64,000 nucleotides of DNA from a virus. Lineage: Duplodnaviria; Heunggongvirae; Uroviricota; Caudoviricetes. The first letter of the stretch is position 1. Every line of letters starts with the position of its first letter. The stretch lies in the IMG/VR virus record IMGVR_UViG_3300029743_000281; one strand, given 5' to 3'. This document shows, in pieces, positions 3,018-48,113 of this stretch. The notes below the pieces were generated by a model, which was not told the DNA's origin, searched no databases, and worked only from the letters and a program-made list of their open reading frames with translations. A program made the translations under genes and the position numbers.

Positions 3018-3026
3018 GGTTTCACC

Positions 3027-7914: not shown

Positions 7915-7926
7915 GTACTTTTCTCC

Positions 7927-8868: not shown

Positions 8869-8984
8869 TGCGTCATCCTCCTTTGGGGTAGTCGTATAAT
8901 GCCGCATGTACGGCTGAATAGCAAGTTCTGTCGCCCAGATAAATCGGCATATTACCGACAAACTATCTGCCTGACAGAACGGCT

Positions 8985-9025
8985 GAAATGCAGCAGATGC
9001 GACAAATGTAAAGGGCTTCCCGGTC
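8985..9025 (-). terminator. Intrinsic terminator after the lysis operon
   Basis: Perfect 9-bp stem GGGCTTCCC-N9-GGGAAGCCC followed by TTTACATTTGT on the minus strand. Confidence 0.5.
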
Positions 9026-9110
9026 AAATTGGGAAGCCCAGAGTGCGACGTTTGAATCAGCCCGGTCTATGTGCCAGAGAGTGCTTTTGTGTCATCGCAA
9101 CGAGGTGATA

Positions 9111-10583: not shown

Positions 10584-10651
10584 AGAAGATTCCTCCAATA
10601 GAAAAAAGCCCGGATTTCTCCGGGCCCAGATAGTGTAGATTCGATTCTTGA

Positions 10652-11335
10652 TCAGGGCAGCAGCAGCTTCATGCCAATCAGGATGCAGTTGGACGTCAGC
10701 CCATTCAGCGCCCGGATGTCCGTGTAGCGAGTGCCGCTGCCGAGCTTGCGCTCTGCGATGCGCCAGAGGTTATCACCGGGAGCCACAGTATAGACCTCCC
10801 TGCCAACAAAGGCGTAAGCGTCCTCGGCATTCAGTACATACGCCACGCCGTCTTCTGCCTCCGGGCACTTGATCTTCAGCCAGTCCCCACAGTGTTCCAG
10901 AACATCCACAATGGAGTTCTTGGCGTAAACGGCAACCACTTCTGCATCCAGACTCGGTGTCTTTCGGATGTTCATCAGAGTTTTCAGCTTGCCATAAGCA
11001 ATGGCATCCGGCAAAGGTTCTGCAGACGGAAACTCCTCAAACGGGGTGCCCTCCGAAGGCTGCTCACCTTCCACTGCGGAGTTCTCCTCCGAAGTATTCT
11101 CCTCCGGGAAATCCGTTACAGGCTTCTCCTCAGCGTTCTCCTCCCGGGTCGTAGGCTCATCCGCCGGGTAGATCACCGTGCCGTCCTCGGCGAACACATA
11201 GCTGCCGGGGTTCTCGTCACACTTTGCCTTGGCATTCGCCAGCAGCTTATATGCACCGAGCTGGGATGCGTCATCGTTCCAATCGGCCCGAACACGATAA
11301 TAGCCGGTGTTCAGCTTTGCAGGATATTCGTTCAT
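10652..11335 (-). CDS. Cell-wall-binding protein with SH3-like N-module and C-terminal LysM
   Basis: N-terminal 45 aa nearly identical to the endolysin C-terminal module (YRVRADWND..PGSYVFAEDGTVIYP). LysM 'YTVAPGDNLWRIAERKLGSGTRYTDIRALNGL'. Confidence 0.7.
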   Translation of the reverse strand: MNEYPAKLNTGYYRVRADWNDDASQLGAYKLLANAKAKCDENPGSYVFAEDGTVIYPADEPTTREENAEEKPVTDFPEENTSEENSAVEGEQPSEGTPFEEFPSAEPLPDAIAYGKLKTLMNIRKTPSLDAEVVAVYAKNSIVDVLEHCGDWLKIKCPEAEDGVAYVLNAEDAYAFVGREVYTVAPGDNLWRIAERKLGSGTRYTDIRALNGLTSNCILIGMKLLLP

Positions 11336-11534
11336 AGTCGCTCCTCCATCAAAATTGAGGGAGAGGTTGCCCTCTCCCGATAGACTCCTTCATAAAGCGC
11401 ACAATTTTTTGGCTTTTGGGAGGTACTTTTCAGAAAACTTCTCTCATTATGCTTACTGAAATTCAGCATTTGGTACCCAGTTCTCCAAATTTTCCTCTCA
11501 TAAAGCACAATGAAAATAGCGAAAAGTTGTATAG

Positions 11535-11966
11535 TTACCCTTCTTTTTCGTCATTTTTCTCCGGGACGTGCTTCTCGTTGGTCAGCTGGATCAGCATATC
11601 CTTCAGCTTTTCGGGGATGGGAATACCGATCACAGCAGAATTTTCCAGAATGGACAGACCTTCATTGGACAGGTAGAAGAAGATCACGGCGGTGCGAATC
11701 GCTGCGCCGTTCTGAAGCACCTGCGTATCGATCACATTCGCCATACCTACCAGCAGGAAGATGCACACCTTCTTAGCAATTCCCTTAAAGCCCACTTCGC
11801 TGGACAGTTCCTTGCGGATACCCGCCGCAAGGATGCCGGTGAAGTAGTCGGTCACCACAAAGACGATGAGTGCGTAGAGGAAGCCATCAAAGCCTCCGAA
11901 AAACCAGCCGAGAAAACCGCCCAGTGCCGCAAAAGCAAACTGGAGCTTGTCGATTACATTTTGCAT
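11535..11966 (-). CDS. Phage holin (holin_4_1-like, multi-TM)
   Basis: Hydrophobic 'FAFAALGGFLGWFFGGFDGFLYALIVFVVTDYFTGILAA', immediately upstream of the lysin genes. Confidence 0.7.
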   Translation of the reverse strand: MQNVIDKLQFAFAALGGFLGWFFGGFDGFLYALIVFVVTDYFTGILAAGIRKELSSEVGFKGIAKKVCIFLLVGMANVIDTQVLQNGAAIRTAVIFFYLSNEGLSILENSAVIGIPIPEKLKDMLIQLTNEKHVPEKNDEKEG

Positions 11967-12073
11967 ACTTGTACCTTGCCTTTCCTGCCCTTTGCAGGGC
12001 ATAAAAAATAGGACGGTGCTCCGTCCTTGTGTAATGGTGTTCTATATAAACACAGCCGTGTGGCTGTGGGGTA

Positions 12074-14068
12074 TTAAATGGCGTTCAGCATACGAGCAAG
12101 ACTGGCTCCGATCAGCTCGTGTCCGATGGGATTCGGATGCACACCGTCAACGATATACTCCGCTTTTACCTTGGCATTTTTTGGACTCAGGCCGACCGTC
12201 CAGCCATCCAGTACAGCAAATCCGAACTCATCTCGTGCCACGTCGTAGATAGCCTGTTTGTACTGAGCCAGTGTAGCGCCCACCTTGTTAGCCGCCTCAC
12301 TGGAACGATGGAACGGTGTCAGGAAAACGATGCGCTTGCCGGGATACTTCTCGCAAAGTCCACTGCACAGTACATGAAGGGCTCCATAGAACGATACATC
12401 CGTAGTGTCAGCAATCGTTCCAAGCGCAACGCCTGTGCCGTAATCATTGGTGCCTCCTGCGATCACGACCATGTCTGCCGCAGCGTCCATACTCGAATAT
12501 CGCAGGGAAATTGCACCGGTCGGAGACTGGTACGAGGTACTGGAAATGCTGATGCCAGATACACCATAGTTTCGGCAGGTCGCTCCCAATTGCTCACAGG
12601 CGATTTCGCAATAACGCTTTTCAGCCCGCTTATTGGGAGAAGAACCACCCACAGGGGTATATGCTCCATAAGTGATAGAGTCCCCGATAAAGTTGATGGT
12701 CTTCCCTCTCCAGTTGGAGTTCTGCACCAGCAAAGCCTGTTCAATGGACTCCTTCACGGATTCGTTCCACTGAGCGAGCTTCTCCTCCACAGCCTTGTTC
12801 TGATTGTCAATAGCTGTCTTGTTCTCTGCCACCGCAGTCCGAATCGGCTCCAATTCAGTCTGCTTGTCCTGTTCGATCTTACTCAGAATCGCAGCCTCTC
12901 TCTGGACTGCCCTCCGGTCCCTATCTGCACCCACTCGGTTCAAAAGCTCCGTCAGGCAGTTCATACACGGCGTTCCTTCCGTATCACAAACCACAACCTG
13001 TGCTTTCGCTGCTTCCTCCTCGGTCAGATTGATATAGAGATACTTCGCAGAGCTGCGGTTCCATGCGGCGATCGATGTCAGCATCATAATGCCACCGTCA
13101 TCCATCTCCCTAAAATGCTGAGCAGGAACAATGGACAGTCGTCCGGCATAATGGAAGTCACCCTCCATACCACCCCAATTACCACGCATAATAGCTAGCT
13201 TGCCGCGCAGCCCATAAAAGAGGACATTCAGCTTGGCGTCATGGAGGTTCCCGGTCGGAATCAACAAATAATAGCCTTCGCCATTGGGATCAACACACCC
13301 CGACATATCATCGCTGGTATTCAGCCCACTAACATCAACATGACCCTTGTAAAAGTTACCGTCTCGAATCAAATCATAGTCGTTGCGCCATTCTTCGTGA
13401 ATATACTTTGCAAGACTTCCGTGAGCTACGCCATCCACAGTTTCAGCGTCGGCTCCTGCATAGTAGGCATCCACTGCCTTCAAGCGCTCACTCAGATTGG
13501 CATAGGTTTTTCCATCTGCATCCACACGGGCATCAAGGATTTCCGTATCAGTGGTATTACCACCGACAATACTGTTCATCCGAGCTGTAAGCTGATTCTT
13601 GGTGCTTTCCAGGTCCTTTCTCCCGGTTGCGAGATCATTTCTGGCAGTAGTCACCTGTCCGGTCAGGGTAGTGGTCGTTTCCTGAAGATTTTTGGCAATA
13701 CGCTGCTCGGTAGTTGAGAGTTCCTGACTGATAGCCGTATGCGTATCCGTCAGTTCTTTGCTGATAGCTGTATGAGTTTCCGAAAACTCCCTGCTCATAT
13801 CAGCCTTGGTCTGTGTAAGGTCAGTGTGCATCTGCTCGACATCAGCATCAACATCCTGCTCCAGATTCCGGACCTGTGCGGAATACTCCGAGCAGATTGC
13901 CCAGTATTCCTCGCTGCTCAAAGCAGTACCCGCCGGGACGGACTTACGGCTGATATAGCTGTCGCCTGTCTCCGGCTGATACACGATACTGAGCATCTCG
14001 TACTTGCTTCTCTTATTCCATGTGCCGCAATGCTTCGGCACAATGCGTCCGCCTACGAATTCACCCAT
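12074..14068 (-). CDS. Tail fibre/receptor-binding protein paralog A with C-terminal SGNH/GDSL hydrolase domain
   Basis: Shared N-terminus MGEFVGGRIVPKHCG plus coiled-coil repeats (ETHTAISKELTDTHTAISQELS). C-terminal 'FIGDSITYG...GGTNDY...DGVHPN'. Confidence 0.8.
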   Translation of the reverse strand: MGEFVGGRIVPKHCGTWNKRSKYEMLSIVYQPETGDSYISRKSVPAGTALSSEEYWAICSEYSAQVRNLEQDVDADVEQMHTDLTQTKADMSREFSETHTAISKELTDTHTAISQELSTTEQRIAKNLQETTTTLTGQVTTARNDLATGRKDLESTKNQLTARMNSIVGGNTTDTEILDARVDADGKTYANLSERLKAVDAYYAGADAETVDGVAHGSLAKYIHEEWRNDYDLIRDGNFYKGHVDVSGLNTSDDMSGCVDPNGEGYYLLIPTGNLHDAKLNVLFYGLRGKLAIMRGNWGGMEGDFHYAGRLSIVPAQHFREMDDGGIMMLTSIAAWNRSSAKYLYINLTEEEAAKAQVVVCDTEGTPCMNCLTELLNRVGADRDRRAVQREAAILSKIEQDKQTELEPIRTAVAENKTAIDNQNKAVEEKLAQWNESVKESIEQALLVQNSNWRGKTINFIGDSITYGAYTPVGGSSPNKRAEKRYCEIACEQLGATCRNYGVSGISISSTSYQSPTGAISLRYSSMDAAADMVVIAGGTNDYGTGVALGTIADTTDVSFYGALHVLCSGLCEKYPGKRIVFLTPFHRSSEAANKVGATLAQYKQAIYDVARDEFGFAVLDGWTVGLSPKNAKVKAEYIVDGVHPNPIGHELIGASLARMLNAI

Positions 14069-14148
14069 GATTTCATTCTCCCTTCTGCTTGCTCAAAGGC
14101 TTACCAACGTCTTTTTCGCAAGCAGGGGGGGAGGATGAAAATCAGCTT

Positions 14149-14199
14149 TCAGGAGTACCCCCCCCCGAAAATTTCTTTCACATTATCGTTCATATTCAT
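14149..14199 (-). CDS. Candidate 16-aa upstream ORF (MNMNDNVKEIFGGGYS) spanning the G9 tract
   Basis: RBS GGAGTGATAACA then ATG. The GGG GGG GGG codons coincide with the homopolymer. Confidence 0.3.
   Translation of the reverse strand: MNMNDNVKEIFGGGYS
14158..14166 (-). repeat. Homopolymeric G9 tract (C9 on plus strand) in the fibre A-B intergenic module
   Basis: Read directly. A C7 run on the coding strand 26 nt downstream is its partial complement. Confidence 0.9.
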
Positions 14200-14214
14200 T
14201 GTTATCACTCCATT

Positions 14215-16833
14215 TCACAGAATCAGTCGTTCCAGCAGGCTCTGGAAGGACGCCGCGATGATCTCATGCCCCTTTTCATCGGGATGCACGCCATTGCCAC
14301 CGTCCTTAGAGAATGCGAGCTTGCGGAAATTCTCATCATCGGGTCGCAGGTTGGATTCGTGGTACAGATCCAGGCATGGGATGCTGCGCCGCTTGCAGAT
14401 CTCAACGATTGCCTCCGAGTACTTCGCCATACCGCAGGTTGTCTTAGAAGGCATACTACCGACCCACGGAGTCGGGGTCACGATACCCAGCCGAGCCAGA
14501 GGAATGCGTTCATAGATGGCATCGATGGTTGCGTTGATGCAGCCACATATCGTATCGGTTCCCGTATCCGTAACAGTTCCCAGCGACTGGTCAGACGAGA
14601 GATCGTTGCCGCTGCCAAAGATGGTGATCACATCGGCATCCTCCGGGATATCACTGACGCGCTGGTAAAATGCTCGGTTGATATCTTTCCGACGCATATA
14701 ACCAGTCCCACTGACACCGAGGTTCACAGTCTTAATGCCTGTCTTTTCGGCAATATAATCGAAGTAGTGCTTCGTGGTACGGCTATTGCTTTCCGTCAAG
14801 CTGTCACCAAGGCATACCCATGTGCGACCATACCACTTAGGTTTCATACCGATAAAATAGCCACGAGTCATAGGCTGGATGCCGCAACTCTGCATACCGT
14901 TGATGCAGGCAATCCGAATAGAAGCTGCTCGTGCCGGAGAAGTCACAACCTTATTCTCAATCTTGCGATCAGTATTGCCCGTGTTGTTTTCGCCGCCGAC
15001 TCGATTTCCGTTCACATCGTAAAACGCATAGAGGCCGTACCCTGCTTTTCCGGCTGCGCTGATACAGTACGGTGTATACGGTTCCACAGTGATAGGCTCG
15101 GACAGCCGGTAATTCGTGTTACCAGTCGGATCTTTCACTATAGCACCTGTTGTCGGATTCAGGAGCATTCCGTTGTTTTCGGTAACTTTGACAGCTTCTC
15201 CAATAGCATATTCGTAGTTCTCGTCCACGATTTTGCTTGCCAGATGGTTTTCCAAGCCGGAGATCCTGCTATCGCGTTCTGCCGCCTGTTCTGCTGCTGT
15301 GCCGACCAGCTCTGCCGAAGGATAGCTGATTCGTGTAACCTTTTTGATTACACCCGTGAAATGGTTGTTCTCCACCCATGCGATGCGTACCGTTGCGGCA
15401 GTTGCCGGAACAGGAGAAATGCGGTCACGATAACCCGCAACTCCATCCGTCTTTTCCTGATAGCCGCCAACTACCTTGTCATCCGCATCGTAGAAAGCAT
15501 ACAGATACTTATTCCAGCCGCCGGAAACCGTAAAAGCATACAGTTCACCGGGGTTGACCGGAATCGGATCGGATACACGGAACGCTGTATTCTCGGATGC
15601 CAAGGGATGGACTTCACCCGCCTTCTCATTGATGCAGCGGTTTGCGGTGTAGGTGAACTCCAGTGCCTCACCCTCAACAACGGCGGCACTAAGCAGTGTA
15701 TTCTGCTCCCCGGTTGCCGCTGCAATCAGGTCGGCCTTCGCCTTTTCCAGACCAGTCTCCACCGCAACCATCCGAGATTCAGGTTTCTCGTTTAGCTCAT
15801 TGGTCGGGAAAAGGAAACGAGTCACTTCCTCCACCTTACCCATAAAATTCGAAACCTGAATCCAGGTGATACGCATACTGACTGCCCCACCCGGCGCGAT
15901 TACGATTCGATTCTCGATTTTACCGGACTTGTTATCCGGCGCGATCTCACCAGCGAGAACATTCTCGTCGCTGTCATAGAAGGCATAGTAGTATTTCTTC
16001 CAGCCACTTGACGCGGTGATAATATACACATGGCCTGCCACAACAGGGATCATCTCCGATGTGTGCCAATGGCCGTCGCTTTCATTCGTCAGCGTACCCA
16101 CCGTGCCGTTCAGATTGATGAAGGTCCGGCTCGTGGAAGCAAAGGTCAGTTCCTTTGTCTCACGACCAGTCGCCTCATCCAGAAGCTGGGACACGATTGT
16201 AGTAAGCCAATCATCCCACAGACCGCGTGTCTTTTCCGCAGAGCGCATTGCTTCGCCTAGTGAGGTATGGGTCGTACCCTGGTTGTCCACGCGGGCATCC
16301 AGAATCTCACTGTCAGTGGTCATGCCTCCGGCGATACTGTCCATCCGCTTATTCAGCGTGGTCTTAGCATCATTCAGTTCCTTACGGCCTGTATTCAAAT
16401 CAGTTTGGGCCAGTTCGACCTTGCCGGAAAGAGTTTCTGTAGTCTGCTGCAGGCTCTCCTGCATACGGCTTTCCGTTTCTGTGAGCTCCTGACTGATAGC
16501 CGTATGCGTATCCGTCAGTTCTTTGCTCATGGCTACATGAGTTTCGGAAAACTCCTTGCTCATGTCTGCCTTAGTCTGTGCAAGATCAGTGTGCATCTGT
16601 TGAACATCGGCATCCACATCCAGTTCCAGTTGATGCAGCTGCGCCGAATACTCCGCACAGATAGCCCAGTATTCCGCACTGTCCAACAACGTACCCGCCG
16701 GGACGGACTTGCGGCTGATATAGCTATCGCCCGTCTCCGGCTGGTACACGATACTGAGCATCTCGTACTTGCTGTTCTTGCTCCATACGCCGCAATGCTT
16801 CGGCACAATGCGGCCGCCTACGAATTCACCCAT
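14215..16833 (-). CDS. Tail fibre/receptor-binding protein paralog B (three internal ~100-aa repeat domains plus C-terminal SGNH hydrolase)
   Basis: Same N-terminus. Repeated 'GGWNKYLYAFYD...' domains. C-terminal 'CLGDSLTES...GSGNDL...DGGNGVHPD'. Confidence 0.8.
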   Translation of the reverse strand: MGEFVGGRIVPKHCGVWSKNSKYEMLSIVYQPETGDSYISRKSVPAGTLLDSAEYWAICAEYSAQLHQLELDVDADVQQMHTDLAQTKADMSKEFSETHVAMSKELTDTHTAISQELTETESRMQESLQQTTETLSGKVELAQTDLNTGRKELNDAKTTLNKRMDSIAGGMTTDSEILDARVDNQGTTHTSLGEAMRSAEKTRGLWDDWLTTIVSQLLDEATGRETKELTFASTSRTFINLNGTVGTLTNESDGHWHTSEMIPVVAGHVYIITASSGWKKYYYAFYDSDENVLAGEIAPDNKSGKIENRIVIAPGGAVSMRITWIQVSNFMGKVEEVTRFLFPTNELNEKPESRMVAVETGLEKAKADLIAAATGEQNTLLSAAVVEGEALEFTYTANRCINEKAGEVHPLASENTAFRVSDPIPVNPGELYAFTVSGGWNKYLYAFYDADDKVVGGYQEKTDGVAGYRDRISPVPATAATVRIAWVENNHFTGVIKKVTRISYPSAELVGTAAEQAAERDSRISGLENHLASKIVDENYEYAIGEAVKVTENNGMLLNPTTGAIVKDPTGNTNYRLSEPITVEPYTPYCISAAGKAGYGLYAFYDVNGNRVGGENNTGNTDRKIENKVVTSPARAASIRIACINGMQSCGIQPMTRGYFIGMKPKWYGRTWVCLGDSLTESNSRTTKHYFDYIAEKTGIKTVNLGVSGTGYMRRKDINRAFYQRVSDIPEDADVITIFGSGNDLSSDQSLGTVTDTGTDTICGCINATIDAIYERIPLARLGIVTPTPWVGSMPSKTTCGMAKYSEAIVEICKRRSIPCLDLYHESNLRPDDENFRKLAFSKDGGNGVHPDEKGHEIIAASFQSLLERLIL

Positions 16834-16853
16834 GATTTCATTCTCCTTCCTGC

Positions 16854-16964
16854 TTACATAAAGGCTTCAAAGCGTCTTTGTCGGCAAGCAGGAGGAGGAT
16901 GGAAATCATTTGTCAGGGAGTACCCCCCCCCGGAAATTTTTACCATAATCACGTTCTTATTCAT
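16854..16964 (-). CDS. Candidate 36-aa upstream ORF (MNKNVIMVKISGGGYS...) spanning the second G9 tract
   Basis: RBS AGGAGCTTTC then ATG; homologous to the 14149..14199 uORF. Confidence 0.3.
   Translation of the reverse strand: MNKNVIMVKISGGGYSLTNDFHPPPACRQRRFEAFM
16923..16931 (-). repeat. Homopolymeric G9 tract (C9 on plus strand) in the fibre B-C intergenic module
   Basis: Read directly. The intergenic segment is ~80% identical to 14069..14214. Confidence 0.9.
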
Positions 16965-16977
16965 GAAAGCTCCTATT

Positions 16978-19900
16978 TTAGTTTTGCGGCAGTACACATA
17001 TTGCCATATTTCTAAAAGCAACATCTGCTATCTGCATATATCCTTCAATTGCCGGATGAACACCATTCGTTCCGACTGCCTCGGTAATCTTATTCCTTGT
17101 GTTAACCTGTTTGCTCGTTGCTGGCATATTGTATTCGCTATCAAACTGTGTGGCAACGTTCAAAAACTCCACATAATTCTTAAACTCTTCATCATTTGCC
17201 AAAGACTGATATGCCAAATTCATTCCCATTACGCTCCTACTAAGTGCATAGGGATTAGAATATGCACTATTCGCGCCATAGTTAGCTCCAGTTCCTCCAT
17301 TGAAAGACGGCATTTGAATTCCCATTACCTTTACCTTCGCTTCAGGGAATTCATCATGCAGTTTTCTAATGAACTCTTTCGCATTTTCTACATGAATTTT
17401 GACTGTATAAGCATCGGGTGTAGAGCAATATCCGCCAAGAGCATTCCAGCTGAGCAAGGTATAGACAAAATCTATCCCTGCAAAGCCATTTCTTTCACAA
17501 TATGATTTAAAGCTGATCTTATCTTGCACAGCATCCCAAAACGGATTACCTTCAGCATAACCTGTACTCGTAAAGGCGATTGCTTCCGGGTGAGTCGCAT
17601 TTGACAAATGAGTTAAGTTCCCTCCCCCCACAGGCATTTTACCTGTGTGGTTCTGAAACCTGGTAAACTTAATTCTTTTCTTCTCAATCGTCTCCATTTG
17701 CCAGACATTTCCATTTTCATCACGCCAGAGACTGTGTTGGTCCGTATTGTCTTTGTCATGTGTCGAATACACCCACATTCCGAGACTTGTGTTTGATGGT
17801 TTGGCAAGGTAACTAGCCCAAGTCCAGCCACCATAACCTTCGTAGCCTATTTGGCCTCTTTTCTTTGTTCCAATTAACTCAATATTGTTTCTACCCAGAC
17901 CGCTTGGCGAACCACCCGTTTCGAGGACACGTCTTGCCAATTCAACACACCACTCACCACCTGTCGTCAAGCTGTCCCCTATACATAGAATATTTTTCTT
18001 TTCTATCGGGCTCTGCCCTGCTTTTCTGATAGCAAGAGTAGTCGTTGCAGAGGCAATAATTCGGTCACTGCAATCTCGAACATTCAGCGTCAATTTATGT
18101 TCACCCTCTTGATCAGCTTTAGGTGTCACTTCAAAATAGCGATTTGTATTTTTTCCGATATCACAAATGCACTCCAAATTAAAGTTATATGGATTTGGAT
18201 GTTCTACAATGCCACGGTAGAAAAGTTGCAGTGTATCATCAACAACGCCATATATCTTGTCTGGCAGAACTACTCTCGGAGGAGTTTCAATGTTCAGCTT
18301 TTCAATTTTCTCATCAAAGCCCTGTTTAACACTCGAAATGGTTTCATCGATTGCAAGTTGCTTGATTGCTGCATCAATTCTCTGCTGGACATTTTCGCTT
18401 TGAGGATTGCTCAGTTGGGCTTTATCCAAGAGGTTTTCTACTACCTCAATGACTTGATCAAGCTGATGCTTCCTCAGTTGATATATACTCTCCAGGTACT
18501 CAACAAACATATCAAGTCTATCCTGATTGATCAGCTCTGTATCATGAATTGGAAACCAGTCTTTCAGTTCTTTGTCAACTCTGAACGGTCCATCTCCTGC
18601 CTGACATGTGTAACAGACTGCGCCGTAATCAGGAGGATTAAGATTCTTGCCTGTATTGCCAAACATAACACTAATATGCTGATCACAGGTAAACCCCGCA
18701 TAAAGTTCTACTGAATTCTCATTTTCAATGGGTGTTGAAAAACGAAACTCAATCTTTCTTCTCTCACCAGATTTGATATGGAAACCTTCTCTTGTTTCGT
18801 CTGCAAGAATAGCCCCCTTATGATTGTTTACAGAAACCACACAGCGTATTTTTTCAATATAGGCATTGTTTTCTTTGCGATTTTCTATCGTAAAAACTAG
18901 AGTGTTGAAATGCTTGGCTTTCCCAATTGGAGCTGCCCAACCAGTAAAGGTTGAAGTTGTATAACTCAAAACAGCATAGGATACAGGCACAAGATTTTGC
19001 TCATCCGATACAGCCCATGAATCCTGAAATGAGTTTTTCAGCTTTGCCAAGCTTTCTTTTATATTTTTCTCAACTTCTCGCCACTTTGCTTTATTCGGAT
19101 TATAGCCGGTCAGCCATACAGCCAAATTGTAACGTCCCCCCGTTGAACAATCTTCCATTTTGGCAAACTGACCGTTCGTGGTATACAAACTACCCGAAGT
19201 TGCTTCTTGACTACCAAACACGTTTGTGCAAATCACATCCGCTTGTAGAAGGATGAAGACTTTTCTTCCTTGTTCAAAGAACAACCCATTCACATCACAG
19301 TGAACACGTTTTTCATCGTTAGGCTCAATTGTGACATTGAGGTACTTGTTAAAGGAGATTTTCTCTTCACTAGCATCATCGAATGCTATTGCAACACGAA
19401 TTTGATTGATTCTTTCACTACGTGCCTTGACGATAAATTCAATTCCTGTTACAAGAATACTTTCGTCGATCAAATACGAGGAAACCCAGCCGCTAAAGGT
19501 CGATGAATCATATGGATAGTACAATTCTCCTCCGTGGATTTTCTTTACTTCTGTTTCTAAAAGCTCCTGAACATACTTTTCAGCCAGTTGTTCATGCACA
19601 GCCTCCCGCATCTCACCGGCTCTCAGAGCTCGTATCGCATTTCCAAGAGTATTATGCGTATGACCATACGAATCAACACGAGCATCCAGAATCTCCGCAT
19701 CCGAGGTCTTTCCCCCGGCAATGCTGTCCATCCGTTTGTTCAACGTATCCTTGGCATCCTTCAGTTCCTGCCGGCCGGTGTTCAGGTCGGACTTGGCCTG
19801 TTCGACCTTGCCGGTCAACTCTGAACTGGTCTGTTCCAGATTCTCATTGACTCGCTGTTCTGTTTCCGACAACTCCTGACTGATTGCCTTGTGCGTATCA

Positions 19901-20220
19901 TCCAGTTCCTTGCTGATCGCCGTATGGGTCTCCTTGAACTCCTGACTCATGGCATTTTTGACTGCCGTAACATCACTGTGCATCTGCTGGACATCCACGT
20001 CCACGTCCTGTTCCAGCTTCCGCATCTGTGCGGAATAATGGGCACACAGCGACCAGTAACTCTCATCTGCCAGCGAGATGCCCACAGGCACAGCCTTACG
20101 GCTGATATAGCTGTCACCGGTCTCGCCGTCCAGTACGATCATCAAGGGTTCATAGGTTTTCTTCTGATCCCAGACACCTACATGGTCCGGTACCACCCGT
20201 TTGCCAACAAACTCTCCCAT
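16978..20220 (-). CDS. Tail fibre/receptor-binding protein paralog C (1080 aa) with C-terminal SGNH hydrolase domain
   Basis: Same N-terminus MGEFVGKRVVPDHVG. 'ILCIGDSLTTGG...GVHPAIEGY'. Confidence 0.8.
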   Translation of the reverse strand: MGEFVGKRVVPDHVGVWDQKKTYEPLMIVLDGETGDSYISRKAVPVGISLADESYWSLCAHYSAQMRKLEQDVDVDVQQMHSDVTAVKNAMSQEFKETHTAISKELDDTHKAISQELSETEQRVNENLEQTSSELTGKVEQAKSDLNTGRQELKDAKDTLNKRMDSIAGGKTSDAEILDARVDSYGHTHNTLGNAIRALRAGEMREAVHEQLAEKYVQELLETEVKKIHGGELYYPYDSSTFSGWVSSYLIDESILVTGIEFIVKARSERINQIRVAIAFDDASEEKISFNKYLNVTIEPNDEKRVHCDVNGLFFEQGRKVFILLQADVICTNVFGSQEATSGSLYTTNGQFAKMEDCSTGGRYNLAVWLTGYNPNKAKWREVEKNIKESLAKLKNSFQDSWAVSDEQNLVPVSYAVLSYTTSTFTGWAAPIGKAKHFNTLVFTIENRKENNAYIEKIRCVVSVNNHKGAILADETREGFHIKSGERRKIEFRFSTPIENENSVELYAGFTCDQHISVMFGNTGKNLNPPDYGAVCYTCQAGDGPFRVDKELKDWFPIHDTELINQDRLDMFVEYLESIYQLRKHQLDQVIEVVENLLDKAQLSNPQSENVQQRIDAAIKQLAIDETISSVKQGFDEKIEKLNIETPPRVVLPDKIYGVVDDTLQLFYRGIVEHPNPYNFNLECICDIGKNTNRYFEVTPKADQEGEHKLTLNVRDCSDRIIASATTTLAIRKAGQSPIEKKNILCIGDSLTTGGEWCVELARRVLETGGSPSGLGRNNIELIGTKKRGQIGYEGYGGWTWASYLAKPSNTSLGMWVYSTHDKDNTDQHSLWRDENGNVWQMETIEKKRIKFTRFQNHTGKMPVGGGNLTHLSNATHPEAIAFTSTGYAEGNPFWDAVQDKISFKSYCERNGFAGIDFVYTLLSWNALGGYCSTPDAYTVKIHVENAKEFIRKLHDEFPEAKVKVMGIQMPSFNGGTGANYGANSAYSNPYALSRSVMGMNLAYQSLANDEEFKNYVEFLNVATQFDSEYNMPATSKQVNTRNKITEAVGTNGVHPAIEGYMQIADVAFRNMAICVLPQN

Positions 20221-20237: not shown

Positions 20238-20987
20238 TTACGCCTCATTGTATCTCACGATCAAGTGACCTTCATCGTCCATCTCAAAAATCAGACCCAG
20301 CGCGTCCCAGCTCTGGAACACCAGATGTCCATCCATATTGATGGACGAGGTGACTATGCCCTCCTCGATATCCTTCGCCACCTTATCAATGGTGCTGGAC
20401 ACAGACCCCTGCGCCAGTCCCAGCTTATCATCCGAGCGCATCACGAGGTATCCGTCATTGGTGATGAGGAATTCCAGGATGCCCTTGGCGGCAGCATTCA
20501 ACGCCTGCTTATAGGTCAGCGTGGCGATTTTACCGTTCTTGACCGCTGCACGGGCCACATTCAGCACCAGACTGAACGAACCAATCACATCTCCCTCATC
20601 GGACAGAAGGTAGATGTCAATCGGGAATCTGCCGTATATTTCGGTCATAAAGGATGTGACCGTCAGGATGACCGCACCGTCATCCACGAACACAAGGTCC
20701 GGGCGGGTCTCGCTGGAATACTGGAACACTGCACCGTCCGGCCGAGTAGCTGAGTAGCTGACGATGGTATCCTTACTGACCTTATACTCCAGCGAGTTCT
20801 GATACAGCCGACACCGCACTTTTCGGGCTTGGTTGTCGTACTGCTTGACCGGGATGTGGGTCGGGATCAGGTTCTCTGTGAATGACAGTTCCACGTCCTG
20901 AAACACCGTGAACGACTTAGTCACCAGTGCCTCCTGCGCCGGTTTCTCCGCTGTCTGTACCACTGCTTTCGCCTTCCTGTTTGCCAT
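20238..20987 (-). CDS. Hypothetical tail/baseplate protein (start taken at MANRKAKAV)
   Basis: Sits between Tal and the fibres. Overlaps the Tal 3' end by ~70 bp. Confidence 0.5.
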   Translation of the reverse strand: MANRKAKAVVQTAEKPAQEALVTKSFTVFQDVELSFTENLIPTHIPVKQYDNQARKVRCRLYQNSLEYKVSKDTIVSYSATRPDGAVFQYSSETRPDLVFVDDGAVILTVTSFMTEIYGRFPIDIYLLSDEGDVIGSFSLVLNVARAAVKNGKIATLTYKQALNAAAKGILEFLITNDGYLVMRSDDKLGLAQGSVSSTIDKVAKDIEEGIVTSSINMDGHLVFQSWDALGLIFEMDDEGHLIVRYNEA

Positions 20988-22857
20988 CTTCTTCGCCTCC
21001 TCCCTCTGTCGGGGTATCCGGGTCGGGCTCAGGTTCCGGTGGCTCATAGCCTACCGTCTGCCAAATTTCTCCGTCCCACAGCTTCAGCCGCAGGGCGGTT
21101 GTATCGACCCAGAGTGCATTTGTTTTCGGATTCTTTGGTGCTGCCTCCTGCGCACAGATGGGCGGAGCATACCGCTCATCCAGTTTCGCCAGCAGCGTGT
21201 CGGACAGCTTATCCGCTGTTCCGTACCGCTCGTCTAGGTTTTTGATGAGTTCTTCCGACAAAGCAGATGCCGTCTTATATCGCTCATCCAACTGTGCAAG
21301 CAGCACCTCGGACAGCTTATCTGCCGTACCGTAGCGTGCGTCCAGGCTTTTGATGAGTTCTTCAGACAAGGCGGATGCCGTCTTATACCGCTCATCCAAC
21401 TGTTCGAGCAGTTCTTCAGTCAGTTCTCCGGCTTTCTTATAGCGTTCATCCAGCTCCTGCAGGGTGTTTTCCAGCAGCAACGCCGTCTTGACCGGGGAAT
21501 CGTCCCGCTCCCAGCCGTAGCCCCATGTCTTACCGCCATCGGTGGAGATGAAAAACCCATCCGGGCTGTTCTTCCACGCAAAGGTGGACTTTGCCAGTGA
21601 CCCGGCATTGAAGGCATACCGCACGGTTTCACCGTTCACCTCGGTCACGTTCTGGTAGTGCAGACCGAACAGACCGGCCAGCAGAGTACCGTCATAGACC
21701 ATCGACACGGAAATGCCGCCGATCTGCTCACCCATGCTGGTTTCCACACGGAGCGCGGTGTTGTAGGCTTCATTGGCTGTGTTTCGGATGTTGCTCAGTG
21801 CTGTAGTCAAAGACGAGTTCCGGCTGCTGACCGTAGAGTTCGACAGCGTAATGCCATCGTACCGTTCCAGCAGACAGTCGTATTGTGTTTCGGTCACCTT
21901 GGAGCTGACCTCGATGCCGAGCTTGGAAATAAACACATGGACGGTATCGCACAGACTCACCTGCTCCGCTTCCACCACATCCTCATAGTCCGGGGTATTC
22001 CAGAGCTGGATAAAGTCGATGTCGATATCCACCTGCGGCTCGGTCAGGCTGGTGTTCTTCAGATAATCCTGTGCAAAAGAGCGCATCATCTCATCCGTGG
22101 GCTTATCCTGAAATCCACTAGTGCAATCTAGTACCGTGATCTTCTGGTACGGAACTGACCGCTGCTCCACCAGCACCACCTTCTCCGGCAACTCCGTCAC
22201 CTCGCCGGTCTCGGAATTCTGCCAGTACGGATGTACACCCGTGATGACGCTCTCAATGTTCTTCTCCATCTTGAAGTCGATGAGGTTTTTGCCGTAAACG
22301 ATATGCACGCCGTGGTCTGAGCCCCGGTGATGATGGAGCTTGACCGTGTATCGGTCCCACTCGTACTCTCCGCCAAAGGTGTCCAGCACCGAGCCGTCGA
22401 TACCGCCGAGGCAGTTCCGAAAAGAGGACGGCACCGAGAGCCGAAAAGAGGCGCTGGAGGAGATATCCGTCCAGACCTCAAAGGGGCACTCGGATGCCGC
22501 GTGGTTTCCCAGCCCCGCCAGCGCACCGGTGCAGCCGGTCGTGGCAAAAGGAGAAACCGTAATGAAGTTTAGCTGATACGAGATGTGCCTTGCCTTGACA
22601 GTCAGCTTGCCATCAATCGGCGTTGCGATTTTGTAGATACGGAACGGCTGCGATCTGCCTGTGTCGGATGGCTTTGCAAGGATGATGCTCCCTTCTTCCA
22701 GCTGATCCGCATGGATACCATCTGCTGGGTAAACCATCTCCAGCTCAAAGCTGCCGTTTCGTTTTTCCGTCACGATGCAGGACTGTGCATCTGCCAGCTT
22801 GCCGATGCCATTGTTGTCAAACTTAGACTCCATGGATGCATACAGACAAGGGATCAT
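20917..22857 (-). CDS. Tail-associated/minor structural protein (Tal-like) with an internal stalk of ~23-aa tandem repeats
   Basis: N-terminal 'SKFDNNGIGKLADAQSCIVTEKRNGSFELEMVYP', typical of the phage minor-structural-protein N-terminal region. Repeats LDERYKTASALSEELIKxLDxRYGTADKLS x4. Confidence 0.75.
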   Translation of the reverse strand: MIPCLYASMESKFDNNGIGKLADAQSCIVTEKRNGSFELEMVYPADGIHADQLEEGSIILAKPSDTGRSQPFRIYKIATPIDGKLTVKARHISYQLNFITVSPFATTGCTGALAGLGNHAASECPFEVWTDISSSASFRLSVPSSFRNCLGGIDGSVLDTFGGEYEWDRYTVKLHHHRGSDHGVHIVYGKNLIDFKMEKNIESVITGVHPYWQNSETGEVTELPEKVVLVEQRSVPYQKITVLDCTSGFQDKPTDEMMRSFAQDYLKNTSLTEPQVDIDIDFIQLWNTPDYEDVVEAEQVSLCDTVHVFISKLGIEVSSKVTETQYDCLLERYDGITLSNSTVSSRNSSLTTALSNIRNTANEAYNTALRVETSMGEQIGGISVSMVYDGTLLAGLFGLHYQNVTEVNGETVRYAFNAGSLAKSTFAWKNSPDGFFISTDGGKTWGYGWERDDSPVKTALLLENTLQELDERYKKAGELTEELLEQLDERYKTASALSEELIKSLDARYGTADKLSEVLLAQLDERYKTASALSEELIKNLDERYGTADKLSDTLLAKLDERYAPPICAQEAAPKNPKTNALWVDTTALRLKLWDGEIWQTVGYEPPEPEPDPDTPTEGGGEEDGKQEGESSGTDSGETGAGGTGD

Positions 22858-22875
22858 CCCGCTCCACCTCCTTCC

Positions 22876-23658: not shown

Positions 23659-23665
23659 CACCTTC

Positions 23666-29491: not shown

Positions 29492-29539
29492 GCGGATAAC
29501 CACCTCCTCCGGGGCATAAGTAAAGACCCATCCGCACAA

Positions 29540-48043: not shown

Positions 48044-48113
48044 GGCGTATCGCCCTCCTTCTACCGCCTAAAGGGCGGTTGCCCGCCCGATAGGTGCCCG
48101 TGCAAGTCGGCGC

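What the first reader, a model, noticed from the sequence alone, without database searches (positions are those of the whole stretch)
12074..20220. Three tandem tail-fibre paralogs with a shared anchor N-terminus, variable centres and C-terminal SGNH esterase domains
All three start MGEFVG(G/K)R(I/V)VP(K/D)H and share ~200 aa including THTAIS coiled-coil repeats; their 5' ~450 bp are ~90% identical at DNA level (e.g. 13739..14068 vs 16490..16833), which favours recombination. Each ends in a GDS(I/L)T...G.NDY/L...GVHP SGNH hydrolase fold, suggesting glycan deacetylase/esterase activity on a surface polysaccharide receptor. A three-protein arsenal suggests host-range breadth or serotype switching.
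Basis: partly seen in the sequence, partly recalled or inferred. Interest (0 to 1): 0.6.

Follow-up and report, generated by a model that had tools for sequence, protein, structure and literature searches.

The report
Tandem esterase tail fibres, poly-G gated
A prophage of a human-gut Clostridia bacterium (closest relatives sit in Faecalibacterium genomes) has three adjacent tail-fibre genes that share one attachment module and end in sugar-deacetylating enzymes. The second and third genes each sit behind a slippery run of G's that looks like an on/off switch, so one virus could make particles with different host-recognition equipment.

Summary
The three ORFs are real: f3 16978-20220, f2 14215-16833 and f1 12074-14068, all on the minus strand. 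They lie between Tal and the holin of a complete siphovirus-type prophage. All share a gap-free 196-aa N-terminus (60-73% identical): a small CBM5/12-like beta domain, a long helix and a hinge. The claimed 90% DNA identity is overstated. f1/f2 are 85.5% identical over 330 nt; f3 is about 63% identical to either. f1 and f2 end in clear Pfam GDSL/SGNH domains. f3 has no Pfam hit, but a confident AlphaFold model shows a divergent SGNH fold resembling carbohydrate O-acetylesterases. f2 and f3 carry Asn in place of the triad Asp. Sister prophages carry one, two or three such fibres, with breakpoints at the end of the anchor, so cassette exchange is supported. SGNH tail fibres are a known kind. Unexpectedly, every non-first fibre gene of this family (48 of 48 instances, 0 of 76 first-position genes) is preceded by a short leader ORF. 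The leader runs into a G7-G17 tract of variable length, followed by a hairpin that pairs the fibre's ribosome-binding site. This suggests a phase-variable translational switch, which is inferred and not demonstrated.

The parts
16978..20220 (-). f3, first fibre gene (1080 aa). It comprises the anchor, two STFSGW beta modules, an FN3/Ig-like domain and a divergent SGNH esterase.
   Evidence: ORF. 99% identical cluster P0001 and 44-50% full-length homologues. The part after the anchor has 41% GC (GC3 37%) against 51-53% elsewhere.
19636..20220 (-). f3 anchor (aa 1-195): N-terminal beta domain, coiled-coil helix and hinge EILDARVD..G.TH..LG.
   Evidence: Alignments. 90-95% identical anchors are fused to CotH, GDSL and other distal modules. 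Backbone homology ends at 19643.
18019..18276 (-). f3 FN3/Ig-like beta-sandwich preceding the esterase (about aa 649-734).
   Evidence: Model strands 26-103. Foldseek hits to FN3-like modules such as 3pe9.
16993..17997 (-). f3 divergent SGNH esterase domain (about aa 742-1076). Ser750 lies in GDSLT, block II is YEGYGGW, Asn926 lies in SWNAL, and block V is Asn1052-x-x-His1055. An ~80-aa beta insertion lies at about 17557-17793.
   Evidence: Family alignment with invariant GDS, E-G..G, N and NGVHP. Profile hits to CE3 acetyl esterases 5b5s/2vpt. AF2 model pLDDT 85.8. Foldseek hits to Ape1, CE2 and sialate O-acetylesterases. The insertion is absent in the collagen-type homologues.
16834..16977 (-). 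Intergenic control region upstream of f2. It holds a leader ORF at 16854-16964 (36 aa in this register), a G9 tract at 16923-16931 and a hairpin at 16834-16907 that pairs the f2 Shine-Dalgarno sequence.
14215..16833 (-). f2, second fibre gene (872 aa). It comprises the anchor (16249-16833), three tandem ~125-170-aa beta modules (14839-16221) and an SGNH esterase (14260-14814; Ser678, Asn847-x-x-His850).
   Evidence: 93.5% DNA identity to the 872-aa gene of two-fibre sister prophages. dN/dS 0.08-0.19.
14069..14214 (-). Intergenic control region upstream of f1. It holds a leader ORF at 14149-14199 (16 aa in this register; 35 aa with G10), a G9 tract at 14158-14166 and a hairpin at 14071-14140 that pairs the f1 Shine-Dalgarno sequence.
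   Evidence: It is paralogous to the f2 upstream region (D4).
12074..14068 (-). f1, third fibre gene (664 aa). It comprises the anchor (13484-14068), a central region without a known family (12692-13483) and an SGNH esterase (12113-12691; Ser464, Asp641-x-x-His644, a full triad).
   Evidence: The exact sequence occurs on at least 17 metagenome contigs. dN/dS 0.05-0.13.
20238..20924 (-). Conserved ~228-aa protein immediately upstream of the first fibre. It has no family match and is a candidate baseplate partner of the anchor.
   Evidence: No Pfam or PHROG hit. Called as 228-249 aa in sister loci. Its C-terminal ..MDDEG.L.V.Y motif precedes first-position anchor genes in distant lineages.
20917..29539 (-). 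Tail context: tape measure (23666-29539), Dit (22876-23661) and Tal with a Prophage_tail domain (20917-22857).
   Evidence: Pfam PF06605 and PHROG Dit/tail families.
9111..12002 (-). Lysis cassette downstream: holin, LysM/SH3 protein and amidase+glucosaminidase endolysin. Terminator-like hairpins at 12010-12068 separate it from f1.

Best explanation
These are three receptor-binding tail fibres of a temperate siphovirus integrated in a gut Clostridia genome; the closest relatives are in Faecalibacterium prausnitzii MAGs.

Anatomy. Each protein is built from the same N-terminal anchor: a ~55-aa CBM5/12-like beta domain that docks on the baseplate, a ~110-residue helix (presumably a trimeric coiled coil) and a conserved hinge. 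Different distal parts follow the hinge: beta-sandwich modules, probably glycan-binding, and a C-terminal SGNH carbohydrate esterase.

Mechanism. The most likely action is that each esterase recognises and removes O-acyl (acetyl) groups from a cell-wall glycopolymer of the host. That gives the particle up to three enzymatic specificities.

How the array arises. It is built and remodelled by homologous recombination within the shared anchor and the duplicated upstream region. Sister prophages therefore carry one, two or three fibres with other enzymes, including CotH-domain modules.

Expression. The first fibre is translated conventionally. The second and third are each preceded by a leader ORF that runs into a hypermutable poly-G tract, followed by a hairpin that sequesters the fibre's Shine-Dalgarno sequence. 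In one of three tract registers the leader is translated through or up to that hairpin and should open it (fibre ON). In the other two it stops early (fibre OFF). In this window f2 would be ON and f1 OFF.

Shown: gene anatomy, domain folds, catalytic motifs, synteny, recombination breakpoints, purifying selection, the tract/position rule, tract-length polymorphism and SD pairing. Inferred: virion location, trimer state, substrate, and the direction and reality of the switch.
For: Position. The order is TMP-Dit-Tal-228 aa-f3-f2-f1-holin-endolysin.

Anchor. The AF2 model (pLDDT 83.7) shows a beta domain at residues 5-58, a helix at 60-170 and a hinge. Foldseek PDB finds the beta domain at the N-termini of the tail fibres of cyanophage A-1(L) 8kec and Agrobacterium phages Milano 8fqc and 7-7-1 9rkv (rmsd 1.4-1.7 A over 42-51 residues, prob 1.0, E 0.04-0.06), and in CBM5/12 chitin-binding domains. 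The hinge matches the phi11 RBP 5efv. BFVD gives hits at E 1e-4 to 1e-6 to N-termini of phage pectate-lyase, collagen-like and tail-fibre proteins.

Esterases. Pfam GDSL_2 matches f1 and f2. Their sequences match the 80alpha Tal gp59 SGNH domain 6v8i and the virion SGNH protein 8egr.

Modularity. The same anchor (90-95% identical) is fused to CotH, GDSL and other modules. The f3 distal module also occurs on a BppU_N anchor. A census of 55 diverse anchor proteins found 16 GDSL, 4 GDPD, 2 CotH, 2 Metallophos and 1 CE4 deacetylase. The family has 172 clusters at E<=1e-30.

Arrays of 1-3 genes and breakpoints. dN/dS is 0.05-0.19.

Switch. The tract is G6-G11 in 32 instances in sister loci, including one 153-nt flank class that is identical in 9 samples but carries G7, G9 or G10. 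All 41 later-position genes have a tract, against 7 of 83 genes scored as first-position. All 7 turn out to follow a truncated or undetected upstream ORF, six of them recognisably fibre genes. Exactly one long-leader register occurs in every lineage despite unrelated peptide sequences. SD pairing probability is 0.75 against 0.40 for first-position genes, p 1.5e-12.
Against: There are no proteomic or EM data placing these proteins in the virion. The fold matches for the anchor domain are short and have weak E-values against the PDB.

f2 and f3 have Asn instead of the triad Asp. Activity may therefore be reduced, or rely on a Ser-His dyad (dyads are known in some carbohydrate esterases, from memory), or be lost in favour of binding only.

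The best structural neighbours of f3 are peptidoglycan O-acetylesterases. The substrate could be peptidoglycan rather than a strain-specific receptor.

For the switch, homopolymer lengths in short-read assemblies are error-prone. The long register is seen in 15/48 and 16/32 instances, close to the random 1/3 expectation. Only one base pair of the hairpin shows a compensatory change. The SD-pairing test is not corrected for relatedness. One tract hairpin also scores as a weak terminator-like site.
Confidence: 0.72

Rival explanations
1. The three proteins are virion-associated cell-wall penetration enzymes rather than host-range determinants. On this view they are peptidoglycan O-acetylesterases, analogous to the Tal SGNH domain of staphylococcal phages, that strip O-acetyl groups so that the phage's glucosaminidase/amidase can cut the wall.
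For: The top fold matches of the f3 esterase are the peptidoglycan O-acetylesterase Ape1 entries 4k3u and 8gkd. f1 and f2 match the SGNH domain of 80alpha Tal gp59, which that paper proposes acts in cell-wall degradation without having measured activity. The genes abut the lysis cassette, whose endolysin is an amidase plus glucosaminidase.
Against: Peptidoglycan is conserved, yet the locus is the most variable part of the prophage. It carries three divergent esterases, 1-3 genes per phage and swaps with CotH or GDPD modules. Long stalks and repeated beta modules are typical of receptor-binding fibres. Sialate, xylan and other polysaccharide esterases score almost as well as Ape1.
Confidence: 0.15
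2. All three fibres are co-expressed constitutively and occupy fixed positions on one baseplate, giving a branched multi-RBP particle. The poly-G length differences are assembly noise or neutral drift. The intergenic hairpins only stabilise or process the polycistronic mRNA, or tune stoichiometry.
For: Multi-tailspike phages with fixed branched RBP complexes are well known (from memory: CBA120, G7C). Homopolymers are error-prone in short-read assemblies. The long-register frequency is near the random 1/3. No promoter-like site lies in the spacers, which is consistent with one operon.
Against: The tract is present upstream of 48/48 non-first fibre genes and 0/76 first genes, across lineages whose anchors are only 33-45% identical and whose leader peptides are unrelated. 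Each lineage keeps stop codons so that exactly one register reaches the fibre start. Lengths range from G6 to G17, not plus or minus 1. The neighbouring C7 run is invariant in the same contigs. SD sequestration is specific to tract-bearing genes.
Confidence: 0.25
3. The G tract acts at the RNA level rather than as heritable DNA phase variation. Transcriptional slippage or ribosomal frameshifting on the G run would produce a fixed fraction of leader read-through, and so set a constant sub-stoichiometric amount of fibres 2 and 3 in every cell.
For: Homopolymer runs of nine or more are classic sites of RNA-polymerase slippage (established knowledge). The three-register architecture works equally well for RNA-level register changes.
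Against: DNA-level length polymorphism is directly observed between samples whose flanks are otherwise identical. The two mechanisms are not exclusive.
Confidence: 0.15
4. f2 and f1 are redundant duplicates on the way to decay. Only the first fibre is used.
For: Some related contigs carry truncated or frameshifted fibre genes (L020, L025, L057, L058). In L013 the f2 stop codon is lost.
Against: dN/dS is 0.05-0.19 for f1 and f2 against diverged orthologues. The ORFs are intact, with catalytic motifs, in hundreds of cluster members (P0080 has 950, P0087 has 745). The distal parts are unrelated to one another, not duplicates.
Confidence: 0.03

Closest known systems
SGNH-esterase receptor-binding proteins of other phages: E. 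coli phage G7C gp63.1 (O-antigen deacetylase) and the SGNH tail fibres of Klebsiella prophages shown to be active acetyl esterases (PMC13123978)
   Same: A tail fibre or tailspike carries an SGNH esterase that modifies rather than depolymerises a surface polysaccharide. The proteins are prophage-encoded and serve as host-specificity determinants.
   Different: Those hosts are Gram-negative and the anchors are unrelated. Here three paralogues share one anchor in tandem, two of them have Asn in place of the triad Asp, one is a divergent SGNH with an inserted beta subdomain that Pfam does not detect, and the substrate is unknown.
Staphylococcus phages 80alpha/phi11: Tal gp59 with a C-terminal SGNH/GDSL domain (6v8i) and RBP gp61/Gp45 (5efv) (PMC7048315)
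   Same: A Gram-positive siphovirus baseplate with an SGNH domain on a virion protein. The sequences match f1 and f2 (E 3e-6 to 4e-8). The hinge motif after the coiled coil resembles the RBP stem.
   Different: In 80alpha the SGNH domain sits on Tal itself. Here Tal has no SGNH domain and the esterases sit on separate fibres with a different N-terminal domain.
Hypermutable poly-G tracts in Campylobacter phage receptor-binding genes (Sorensen et al. 2021, Cell Rep 35:109214; cited in PMC12823448)
   Same: A phage uses a slippage-prone poly-G run associated with receptor-binding protein genes to create subpopulations with different host-recognition equipment.
   Different: As I recall that work, the tract lies inside the coding sequence and switches the protein by frameshift; I did not read the paper, only its citation. 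Here the tract lies in a separate short leader ORF 61-102 nt upstream and is coupled to a hairpin that hides the Shine-Dalgarno sequence. It marks only the non-first genes of a tandem array. The hosts are gut Clostridia.
Multi-RBP phages with shared or adaptor N-terminal domains (from memory: CBA120 TSP1-4, SP6/K1-5 dual tailspikes, PhiK64-1)
   Same: Several enzymatic RBPs are encoded side by side, have modular N-terminal attachment domains and exchange distal modules horizontally.
   Different: Those systems use distinct interlocking N-termini for a fixed branched complex. Here the anchors are paralogous (60-73% identical) and the gene number varies from 1 to 3 between near-identical prophages.
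Other tail-fibre switching systems: Mu Gin / P1 Cin invertible segments and the BPP-1 diversity-generating retroelement (cited in PMC12823448 and PMC11792537)
   Same: The presumed purpose is the same: tropism diversification within one phage lineage.
   Different: No inverted repeats flank the fibre segments. No reverse transcriptase was found among the ORFs scanned. The mechanism here would be homopolymer slippage plus translational coupling.
Carbohydrate esterases CE2/CE3, peptidoglycan O-acetylesterase Ape1 and bacterial sialate O-acetylesterases
   Same: These are the best structural and profile neighbours of the f3 catalytic domain. The HEG(H/Y)(S/G)GW block II resembles CE3, and like Ape1 and CE2 the f3 protein combines an SGNH core with an extra beta-rich domain.
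   Different: Sequence identity is 10-13%. The invariant Asn-x-x-His replaces Asp-x-x-His. The domain is fused to a phage fibre.

Membership tests
SGNH/GDSL hydrolase superfamily | Block I GDS(x) with the nucleophile Ser | tested here: met
   f1 GDSIT Ser464, f2 GDSLT Ser678, f3 GDSLT Ser750. It is invariant in the f3-type family.
SGNH/GDSL hydrolase superfamily | Block II Gly and block III Asn (oxyanion hole; consensus GxND) | tested here: met
   f1 YGVSG / GGTNDY; f2 LGVSG / GSGNDL; f3 YEGYGGW / SWNAL. In f3 the Asn is invariant, but the flanking G and D of GxND are absent.
SGNH/GDSL hydrolase superfamily | Block V DxxH (catalytic His with its Asp partner) | tested here: inconclusive
   His is present in all three. 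Asp is present only in f1 (DGVHP). f2 and f3 read NGVHP, and the Asn is invariant in 17 f3-type sequences. This is compatible with a Ser-His dyad, but activity cannot be inferred.
SGNH/GDSL hydrolase superfamily | Three-layer alpha/beta/alpha SGNH fold | tested here: met
   f1 and f2 give full-length Pfam PF13472 matches above the curated cut-off. The f3 AF2 model has pLDDT 85.8 and pTM 0.82. Foldseek probability is 1.0 to many SGNH esterases, with TM (target-normalised) 0.55-0.65.
SGNH/GDSL hydrolase superfamily | Measured esterase activity | not testable with these tools
   Requires purified protein and pNP-acetate or native polysaccharide assays.
Siphovirus tail fibre / receptor-binding protein | Encoded in the tail module after Dit and Tal and before the lysis genes | tested here: met
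   The same synteny is seen in all sister loci.
Siphovirus tail fibre / receptor-binding protein | N-terminal baseplate-attachment domain followed by a trimeric stalk | tested here: inconclusive
   The beta domain matches the N-termini of solved tail fibres (8kec, 8fqc, 9rkv) at rmsd 1.4-1.7 A but E 0.04-0.1. Matches to phage proteins in BFVD are stronger. A 110-residue helix is predicted. Oligomeric state was not modelled.
Siphovirus tail fibre / receptor-binding protein | Physical presence in the virion and a role in adsorption | not testable with these tools
   Requires proteomics, cryo-EM and adsorption assays.
Hypermutable poly-G phase variation of phage RBP genes (Campylobacter-phage type) | Poly-G tract of slippage-prone length associated with an RBP gene | tested here: met
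   G9 at 14158-14166 and at 16923-16931. G6-G17 in 80 related instances.
Hypermutable poly-G phase variation of phage RBP genes (Campylobacter-phage type) | Tract-length polymorphism among otherwise identical genomes | tested here: met
   Nine samples share an identical 153-nt flank but carry G7, G9 or G10. Other flank classes carry G9, G10 or G11. Within-population heterogeneity could not be tested because no reads are available.
Hypermutable poly-G phase variation of phage RBP genes (Campylobacter-phage type) | Tract lies inside the RBP coding sequence, so that slippage frameshifts the RBP itself | tested here: not met
   The tract lies in a separate leader ORF 61-102 nt upstream of the fibre start codon. 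This is therefore not a member of that type but a different arrangement with a similar presumed effect.
Invertible-segment (Gin/Cin) or DGR tail-fibre diversification | Inverted repeats flanking alternative fibre segments, or a reverse transcriptase with template/variable repeats | tested here: not met
   Only one weak 23-nt inverted pair (83% complementary) was found. The direct repeats are the paralogous anchors only. No RT domain was found among the 39 window ORFs scanned. Small ORFs were not all scanned.

The most novel reading that the evidence does not exclude
A previously undescribed, family-wide regulatory device may gate the extra tail-fibre genes. In prophages of gut Clostridia that carry tandem fibre genes with this anchor, every additional fibre gene is gated by a leader ORF, a poly-G tract and an anti-Shine-Dalgarno hairpin. 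Slippage of the G run moves the leader ORF among three registers. Only one register carries ribosomes into the hairpin and switches on translation of the downstream fibre. Each extra fibre is therefore an independent, heritable but reversible ON/OFF unit. A single lysogen population would release a mixture of particles armed with different combinations of receptor-modifying enzymes, which amounts to bet-hedging on host surface types.
Probability: 0.45. Interest if true: 0.8.

Novelty: new variant of a known kind. Interest (0 to 1): 0.62.

Why it matters
Host recognition by phages of dominant gut Firmicutes is almost unknown, because few of these phages are cultured. This locus gives three concrete leads.

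(1) It defines an unnamed but large N-terminal anchor family: 172 clusters at E<=1e-30, and thousands at looser thresholds. The anchor carries interchangeable glycopolymer-modifying enzymes (SGNH, GDPD, CE4, CotH). It can be used to find receptor-binding genes in metagenomes.

(2) It suggests that deacetylation, rather than depolymerisation, of wall polysaccharides is a common entry strategy in gut Clostridia phages. This parallels recent findings in Klebsiella prophages.

(3) It offers a simple, testable genetic switch that could explain how one temperate phage maintains several host specificities. Such a switch would also complicate host-range prediction from assembled genomes, because one G more or less would change the virion.

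Tried and rejected
- **Known isolate.** Megablast of the 12-kb tail-fibre region against 50,697 phage records found nothing. tblastn with the anchor found only two weak hits, a crAss-like contig and Eggerthella phage LE1-1. tblastn with Tal found only 33-70% identical relatives in uncultured or Ruminococcus phages. No described isolate therefore carries this locus.
- **Pfam on the parts without a family.** The anchor alone, the central regions and the 228-aa upstream protein gave nothing meaningful. The precomputed PF28217 (FAM81B), PF27984 (CRLF3_N) and Apolipoprotein hits are coiled-coil noise, marked weak or faint.
- **Sequence search of f3 against the PDB.** It gave only apolipoprotein and coiled-coil noise. 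A profile and a structure model were needed.
- **Rfam.** There was no family at gathering score in the whole window. Only a chance-level twister-P3 hit (E 0.75) appeared near the spacers.
- **Promoter scan.** No sigma-70-like site lies in the spacers. One tract hairpin is listed as terminator-like, which I regard as weak because the T-run is poor and is absent in the f2 copy and in distant lineages.
- **Invertase or DGR switching.** Considered and rejected.
- **Self-BLAST for internal repeats.** It found none, but direct alignment shows three 28-34% identical modules in f2.
- **Pseudogene decay.** Rejected by dN/dS.
- **Literature.** Searches of the held library found no description of this anchor family or of a poly-G leader element in gut phages. 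Papers outside the library cannot be excluded.

Full report
**1. What is in the sequence**

The interval holds three intact ORFs on the minus strand. In order of transcription they are f3 (16978-20220, 1080 aa), f2 (14215-16833, 872 aa) and f1 (12074-14068, 664 aa). They follow a tape-measure gene (23666-29539), a Dit homologue (PHROG 33), a Tal with a Prophage_tail domain (PF06605) and a ~228-aa protein without family. They precede a holin, a LysM/SH3 protein and an amidase+glucosaminidase endolysin.

The rest of the window encodes terminase, portal, ClpP-type protease, capsid, tail tube, a primase/helicase, methyltransferases and several large serine recombinases. It is therefore a complete siphovirus-type prophage. 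Near-identical tail regions (93-95% DNA identity) occur in human-gut metagenomes and in two NCBI MAGs whose protein is labelled Faecalibacterium prausnitzii. No record in a 50,697-genome phage collection matches the region.

**2. Check of the observation**

All three proteins start MGEFVG and align without gaps over 196 residues. Protein identity is 73% (f1/f2), 65% (f2/f3) and 60% (f1/f3). The DNA claim is overstated. f1 and f2 are 85.5% identical over the first 330 nt and 78% over 450 nt. f3 is only 62-65% identical to either.

The duplicated unit extends upstream of the start codons of f2 and f1. Their 144- and 146-nt spacers are paralogous (D4). The part of f3 after the anchor has 41% GC (GC3 37%) against 51-53% for everything else, which points to a foreign origin for that cassette.

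**3. The C-terminal domains**

f1 (aa 460-652) and f2 (aa 674-858) match Pfam Lipase_GDSL_2 over the whole model (E 4.6e-20 and 2.1e-19). They also match solved SGNH proteins, including the Tal gp59 of staphylococcal phage 80alpha (6v8i) and a virion SGNH protein (8egr).

f3 gives no Pfam hit and only coiled-coil noise against PDB sequences. I aligned its last 451 residues with 16 homologues of 21-60% identity. The invariant columns include GDS, E-G..G, a single Asn and NGVHP. A profile of that alignment hits CE3 acetyl esterases 5b5s and 2vpt at E 1e-4 to 3e-4, with blocks I, III and V aligned in 5b5s.

An AlphaFold2 model (pLDDT 85.8, pTM 0.82) shows an FN3/Ig-like sandwich followed by an alpha/beta domain with an inserted beta subdomain. 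Foldseek places the alpha/beta domain with peptidoglycan O-acetylesterase Ape1 (4k3u, 8gkd), CE2 (2waa), sialate O-acetylesterases (6njc, 7pzg) and Est24 (5hoe). Probability is 1.0 and target-normalised TM is about 0.6 for the single-domain SGNH esterases (0.34-0.37 for the two-domain Ape1 and CE2 entries). The ~80-residue insertion is absent from shorter homologues that carry collagen repeats.

The catalytic Ser, the oxyanion Gly and Asn, and the His are present in all three. The triad Asp is present only in f1 (DGVHP). f2 and f3 have Asn (NGVHP), which is invariant in the f3-type family. From memory, Ser-His dyads occur in some carbohydrate esterases (CE2, NanS). Activity therefore remains plausible but is unproven.

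**4. The shared N-terminus**

A model built from 25 diverse anchors (pLDDT 83.7) shows a small beta domain (residues 5-58), one long helix (60-170), a short hinge and a further helix.

Against the PDB, the beta domain superposes on the N-termini of the tail fibres of cyanophage A-1(L) and of Agrobacterium phages Milano and 7-7-1. It also superposes on CBM5/12 chitin-binding domains. The fit is rmsd 1.4-1.7 A over 42-51 residues at 22-31% identity, but E is only 0.04-0.1. Against predicted viral structures the hits are stronger (E 1e-4 to 1e-6). They all fall on N-termini of proteins annotated as pectate lyase, tail fibre or collagen-like, from uncultured gut phages including crAss-like ones.

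The hinge motif (LNxRMDSIxGGxTxDxEILDARVDxxGxTHxxLG) weakly matches the stem of the phi11/80alpha receptor-binding protein. Pfam has no model for this anchor.

In a library of 1.84 billion cluster representatives, the anchor profile finds 172 clusters at E<=1e-30 and 4,846 at E<=1e-10. The match is at residue 1 in almost all of the listed hits, and full-length proteins run to about 1650 aa. Among 55 diverse members the distal domains recognised by Pfam are GDSL/SGNH (16), GDPD (4), CotH (2), metallophosphoesterase (2) and CE4 polysaccharide deacetylase (1). The anchor is thus a general adaptor for enzymes that act on wall glycopolymers.

**5. Central regions**

f2 contains three tandem beta-rich modules (28-34% identical, motif ..W.KYLYAFYD.D.NVVGG..) separated by helical linkers. 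f3 contains two modules marked by STF(S/T)GW. These recur in homologues that have a BppU_N anchor instead (P0022). None has a Pfam family. I read them as glycan-binding modules by analogy only.

**6. Cassette exchange**

Sister prophages share the same backbone but differ at this locus:
- a single 813-aa GDSL fibre (L005-L008);
- a 1654-aa CotH fibre plus the 872-aa fibre (L001-L004, L027, L028);
- the same 1080+872+664 trio as here (L009-L012);
- 1080+664 without f2 (L022).

DNA homology between the window and the one- and two-fibre phages runs from the tape measure through the f3 anchor and stops at 19643, which is f3 residue ~193, the hinge. It resumes for spacer+f2 (16964-14219), and again from 12078, the f1 stop, into the holin. 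The 813-aa protein combines an f3-type anchor (94% identical) with an f2-type esterase (92-96% identical).

f1 and f2 are under strong purifying selection (dN/dS 0.05-0.19), so they are working genes.

**7. An unexpected feature: poly-G leader elements**

Each of the two spacers contains the following elements in order:
- a Shine-Dalgarno-like sequence and an ATG;
- 11 codons;
- a G9 run (16923-16931 and 14158-14166);
- a C-rich stretch that RNAfold pairs with the fibre gene's own Shine-Dalgarno sequence and start region. The whole-spacer folds are -42.7 and -45.1 kcal/mol, with z -2.6 and -2.4.

In 13 sister loci and 16 further metagenome contigs the run is G6 to G11 while the flanks are unchanged. 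One 153-nt flank class is identical in nine samples that carry G7, G9 or G10. The nearby C7 run does not vary in the same contigs.

The leader reading frame depends on the run. Upstream of f1, G9 gives a 16-aa peptide that stops 80 nt before the fibre start. G10 gives 35 aa ending 24 nt before it, after passing through the 5' arm of the hairpin. Upstream of f2, an extra C shifts the register, so G9 gives the long (36-aa) form.

The same architecture appears upstream of the second fibre gene in distant lineages whose anchors are only 33-45% identical. Their leader peptides and hairpin sequences are unrelated.

I then took 124 anchor genes from 79 loci in IMG/VR and GTDB genomes. All 41 genes that follow another anchor gene have a G7-G17 run within 160 nt upstream. 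Of 83 genes scored as 'first', 76 have none. The other seven all follow a truncated or otherwise undetected upstream ORF, six of them recognisably fibre genes.

In all 48 instances exactly one register carries the leader to -55, -20, -4 or +8 relative to the fibre ATG (or, in two, past the end of the segment analysed), and the other two stop at least 26 nt earlier. The Shine-Dalgarno region has a mean pairing probability of 0.75 in tract-bearing genes against 0.40 in first-position genes. The Mann-Whitney p is 1.5e-12, not corrected for relatedness.

RNAalifold gives a conserved hairpin, but with only one compensatory pair because the close sequences vary little. Rfam has no such family.

In the held literature, the only phage poly-G precedent I found is the Campylobacter-phage work (Sorensen 2021, cited in PMC12823448). 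I did not read that paper; as I recall it, the tract there lies inside the RBP gene.

**8. How it most likely works**

*Shown:* the anatomy, folds, motifs, synteny, breakpoints, selection, and the tract rule with its polymorphism.

*Inferred:* the fibres trimerise through the helix and dock by the beta domain onto the baseplate; the conserved 228-aa protein or the Tal C-terminus are candidate docking sites. The beta modules bind a wall glycopolymer. The SGNH domain removes O-acyl groups, enabling productive adsorption, as in G7C gp63.1 and the Klebsiella prophage SGNH fibres that were shown to be active esterases.

The first fibre is made whenever the late operon is expressed. The second and third are translated only when the leader ORF is in the register that lets ribosomes melt the anti-SD hairpin. 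In this window that would mean f2 ON and f1 OFF.

The long register is seen in 15/48 and 16/32 instances, close to one third. That is what unselected slippage in a silent prophage would give. It is equally what a functionless tract would give. The strict positional rule and the conserved three-register design are the arguments for function, not the state frequencies.

**9. Rivals**

- The esterases might serve wall penetration (peptidoglycan de-O-acetylation) rather than host discrimination. The Ape1 matches and the 80alpha Tal analogy support this. The extreme variability of the locus argues against it.
- The tracts might be neutral or assembly noise, and the hairpins mere mRNA structure. The 48/48 against 0/76 association across unrelated sequences argues against that.
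- RNA-level slippage could act instead of, or in addition to, DNA slippage.
- Decay of redundant copies is excluded by dN/dS.

**10. Comparison and verdict**

SGNH-bearing tail fibres, modular anchors and multi-RBP phages are established. The finding as written is therefore a new member of a known kind, correctly interpreted apart from the inflated DNA identity and the atypical f3 and f2 motifs.

Three things raise its interest: the unnamed and widespread anchor family, the divergent Asn-His SGNH subfamily, and above all the leader-ORF/poly-G/anti-SD element that marks every additional fibre gene. That element resembles Campylobacter-phage poly-G switching in its presumed effect. It fails that family's defining feature, a tract inside the RBP coding sequence. 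I therefore file it as a new variant rather than a member.

Noticed in passing
window 14069-14214 and 16834-16977 (minus strand); also L001-L112: Upstream of f1 and f2 there is a leader ORF, a hypervariable poly-G tract and an anti-Shine-Dalgarno hairpin. The same element lies upstream of every non-first fibre gene of this anchor family (48/48) and of no first-position gene (0/76).
   Followed up: yes
L013:1090-3831 (sister locus): The f2 stop codon is mutated (TGA to GGA). With G10, the ORF reads 41 codons further through the spacer, giving 913 aa. This is a natural read-through variant that overlaps the leader and hairpin region.
   Followed up: partly
L022:2997-8400; the same hybrid spacer occurs in L017, L020 and L023: This is a two-fibre array, 1080+664, lacking f2. 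Its spacer is a hybrid: f2-upstream type to the left of the G tract and f1-upstream type to the right. That implies deletion by recombination between the paralogous spacers, with the crossover at or next to the tract.
   Followed up: partly
window 16978-19635: The distal part of f3 has 41% GC and 37% GC3, against 51-53% and 55-63% for the anchors and for f1 and f2. This suggests recent acquisition from a lower-GC phage or host.
   Followed up: partly
window 20238-20924 (minus strand): A conserved ~228-aa protein with no Pfam or PHROG family always lies directly upstream of the first anchor gene. Its C-terminal motif ..F.MDDEG.L.V.Y.. is kept in distant lineages. It is a candidate docking partner for the fibre anchors.
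   Followed up: partly
window 21169-21384 (minus strand, within Tal): The Tal C-terminal region contains a tandem 108-nt repeat (81% identical). It encodes repeated LDERYKTASALSEELIK-type coiled-coil units, followed by a Pro/Glu/Gly-rich tail.
   Followed up: no
window 5199-9027 and 1056-3998 (minus strand): Three large serine recombinase genes lie in tandem directly after the endolysin. A fourth lies further on, next to an AAA_25 ATPase. The same trio is conserved in sister prophages. The reason for three is unknown.
   Followed up: no
window 51426-58084 (minus strand): The prophage encodes a SAM synthetase and three DNA methyltransferases: one C5 and two N6/N4, one of which is fused to ParB_N. 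An amidoligase and a GGACT-like protein lie at 47284-49109. This looks like an anti-restriction or epigenetic module.
   Followed up: no
window 31581-32414 (minus strand): An SPFH/Band-7 family protein is encoded between the tail tube gene and the tape measure region, where tail assembly chaperones are usually found.
   Followed up: no
window 12010-12068 (minus strand): Two terminator-like hairpins lie between the f1 stop and the holin start. One is followed by ATTTTTT. This suggests that the structural operon ends after the third fibre and that the lysis genes are transcribed separately.
   Followed up: no
window 19636-19700; f1, f2 and f3 residues ~165-195: The hinge motif EILDARVD..G.TH..LG coincides with the recombination breakpoint. 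It is also kept in homologues that have entirely different N-terminal anchors (P0013, P0014). It may be a general junction or recombination hotspot between anchors and distal modules.
   Followed up: partly
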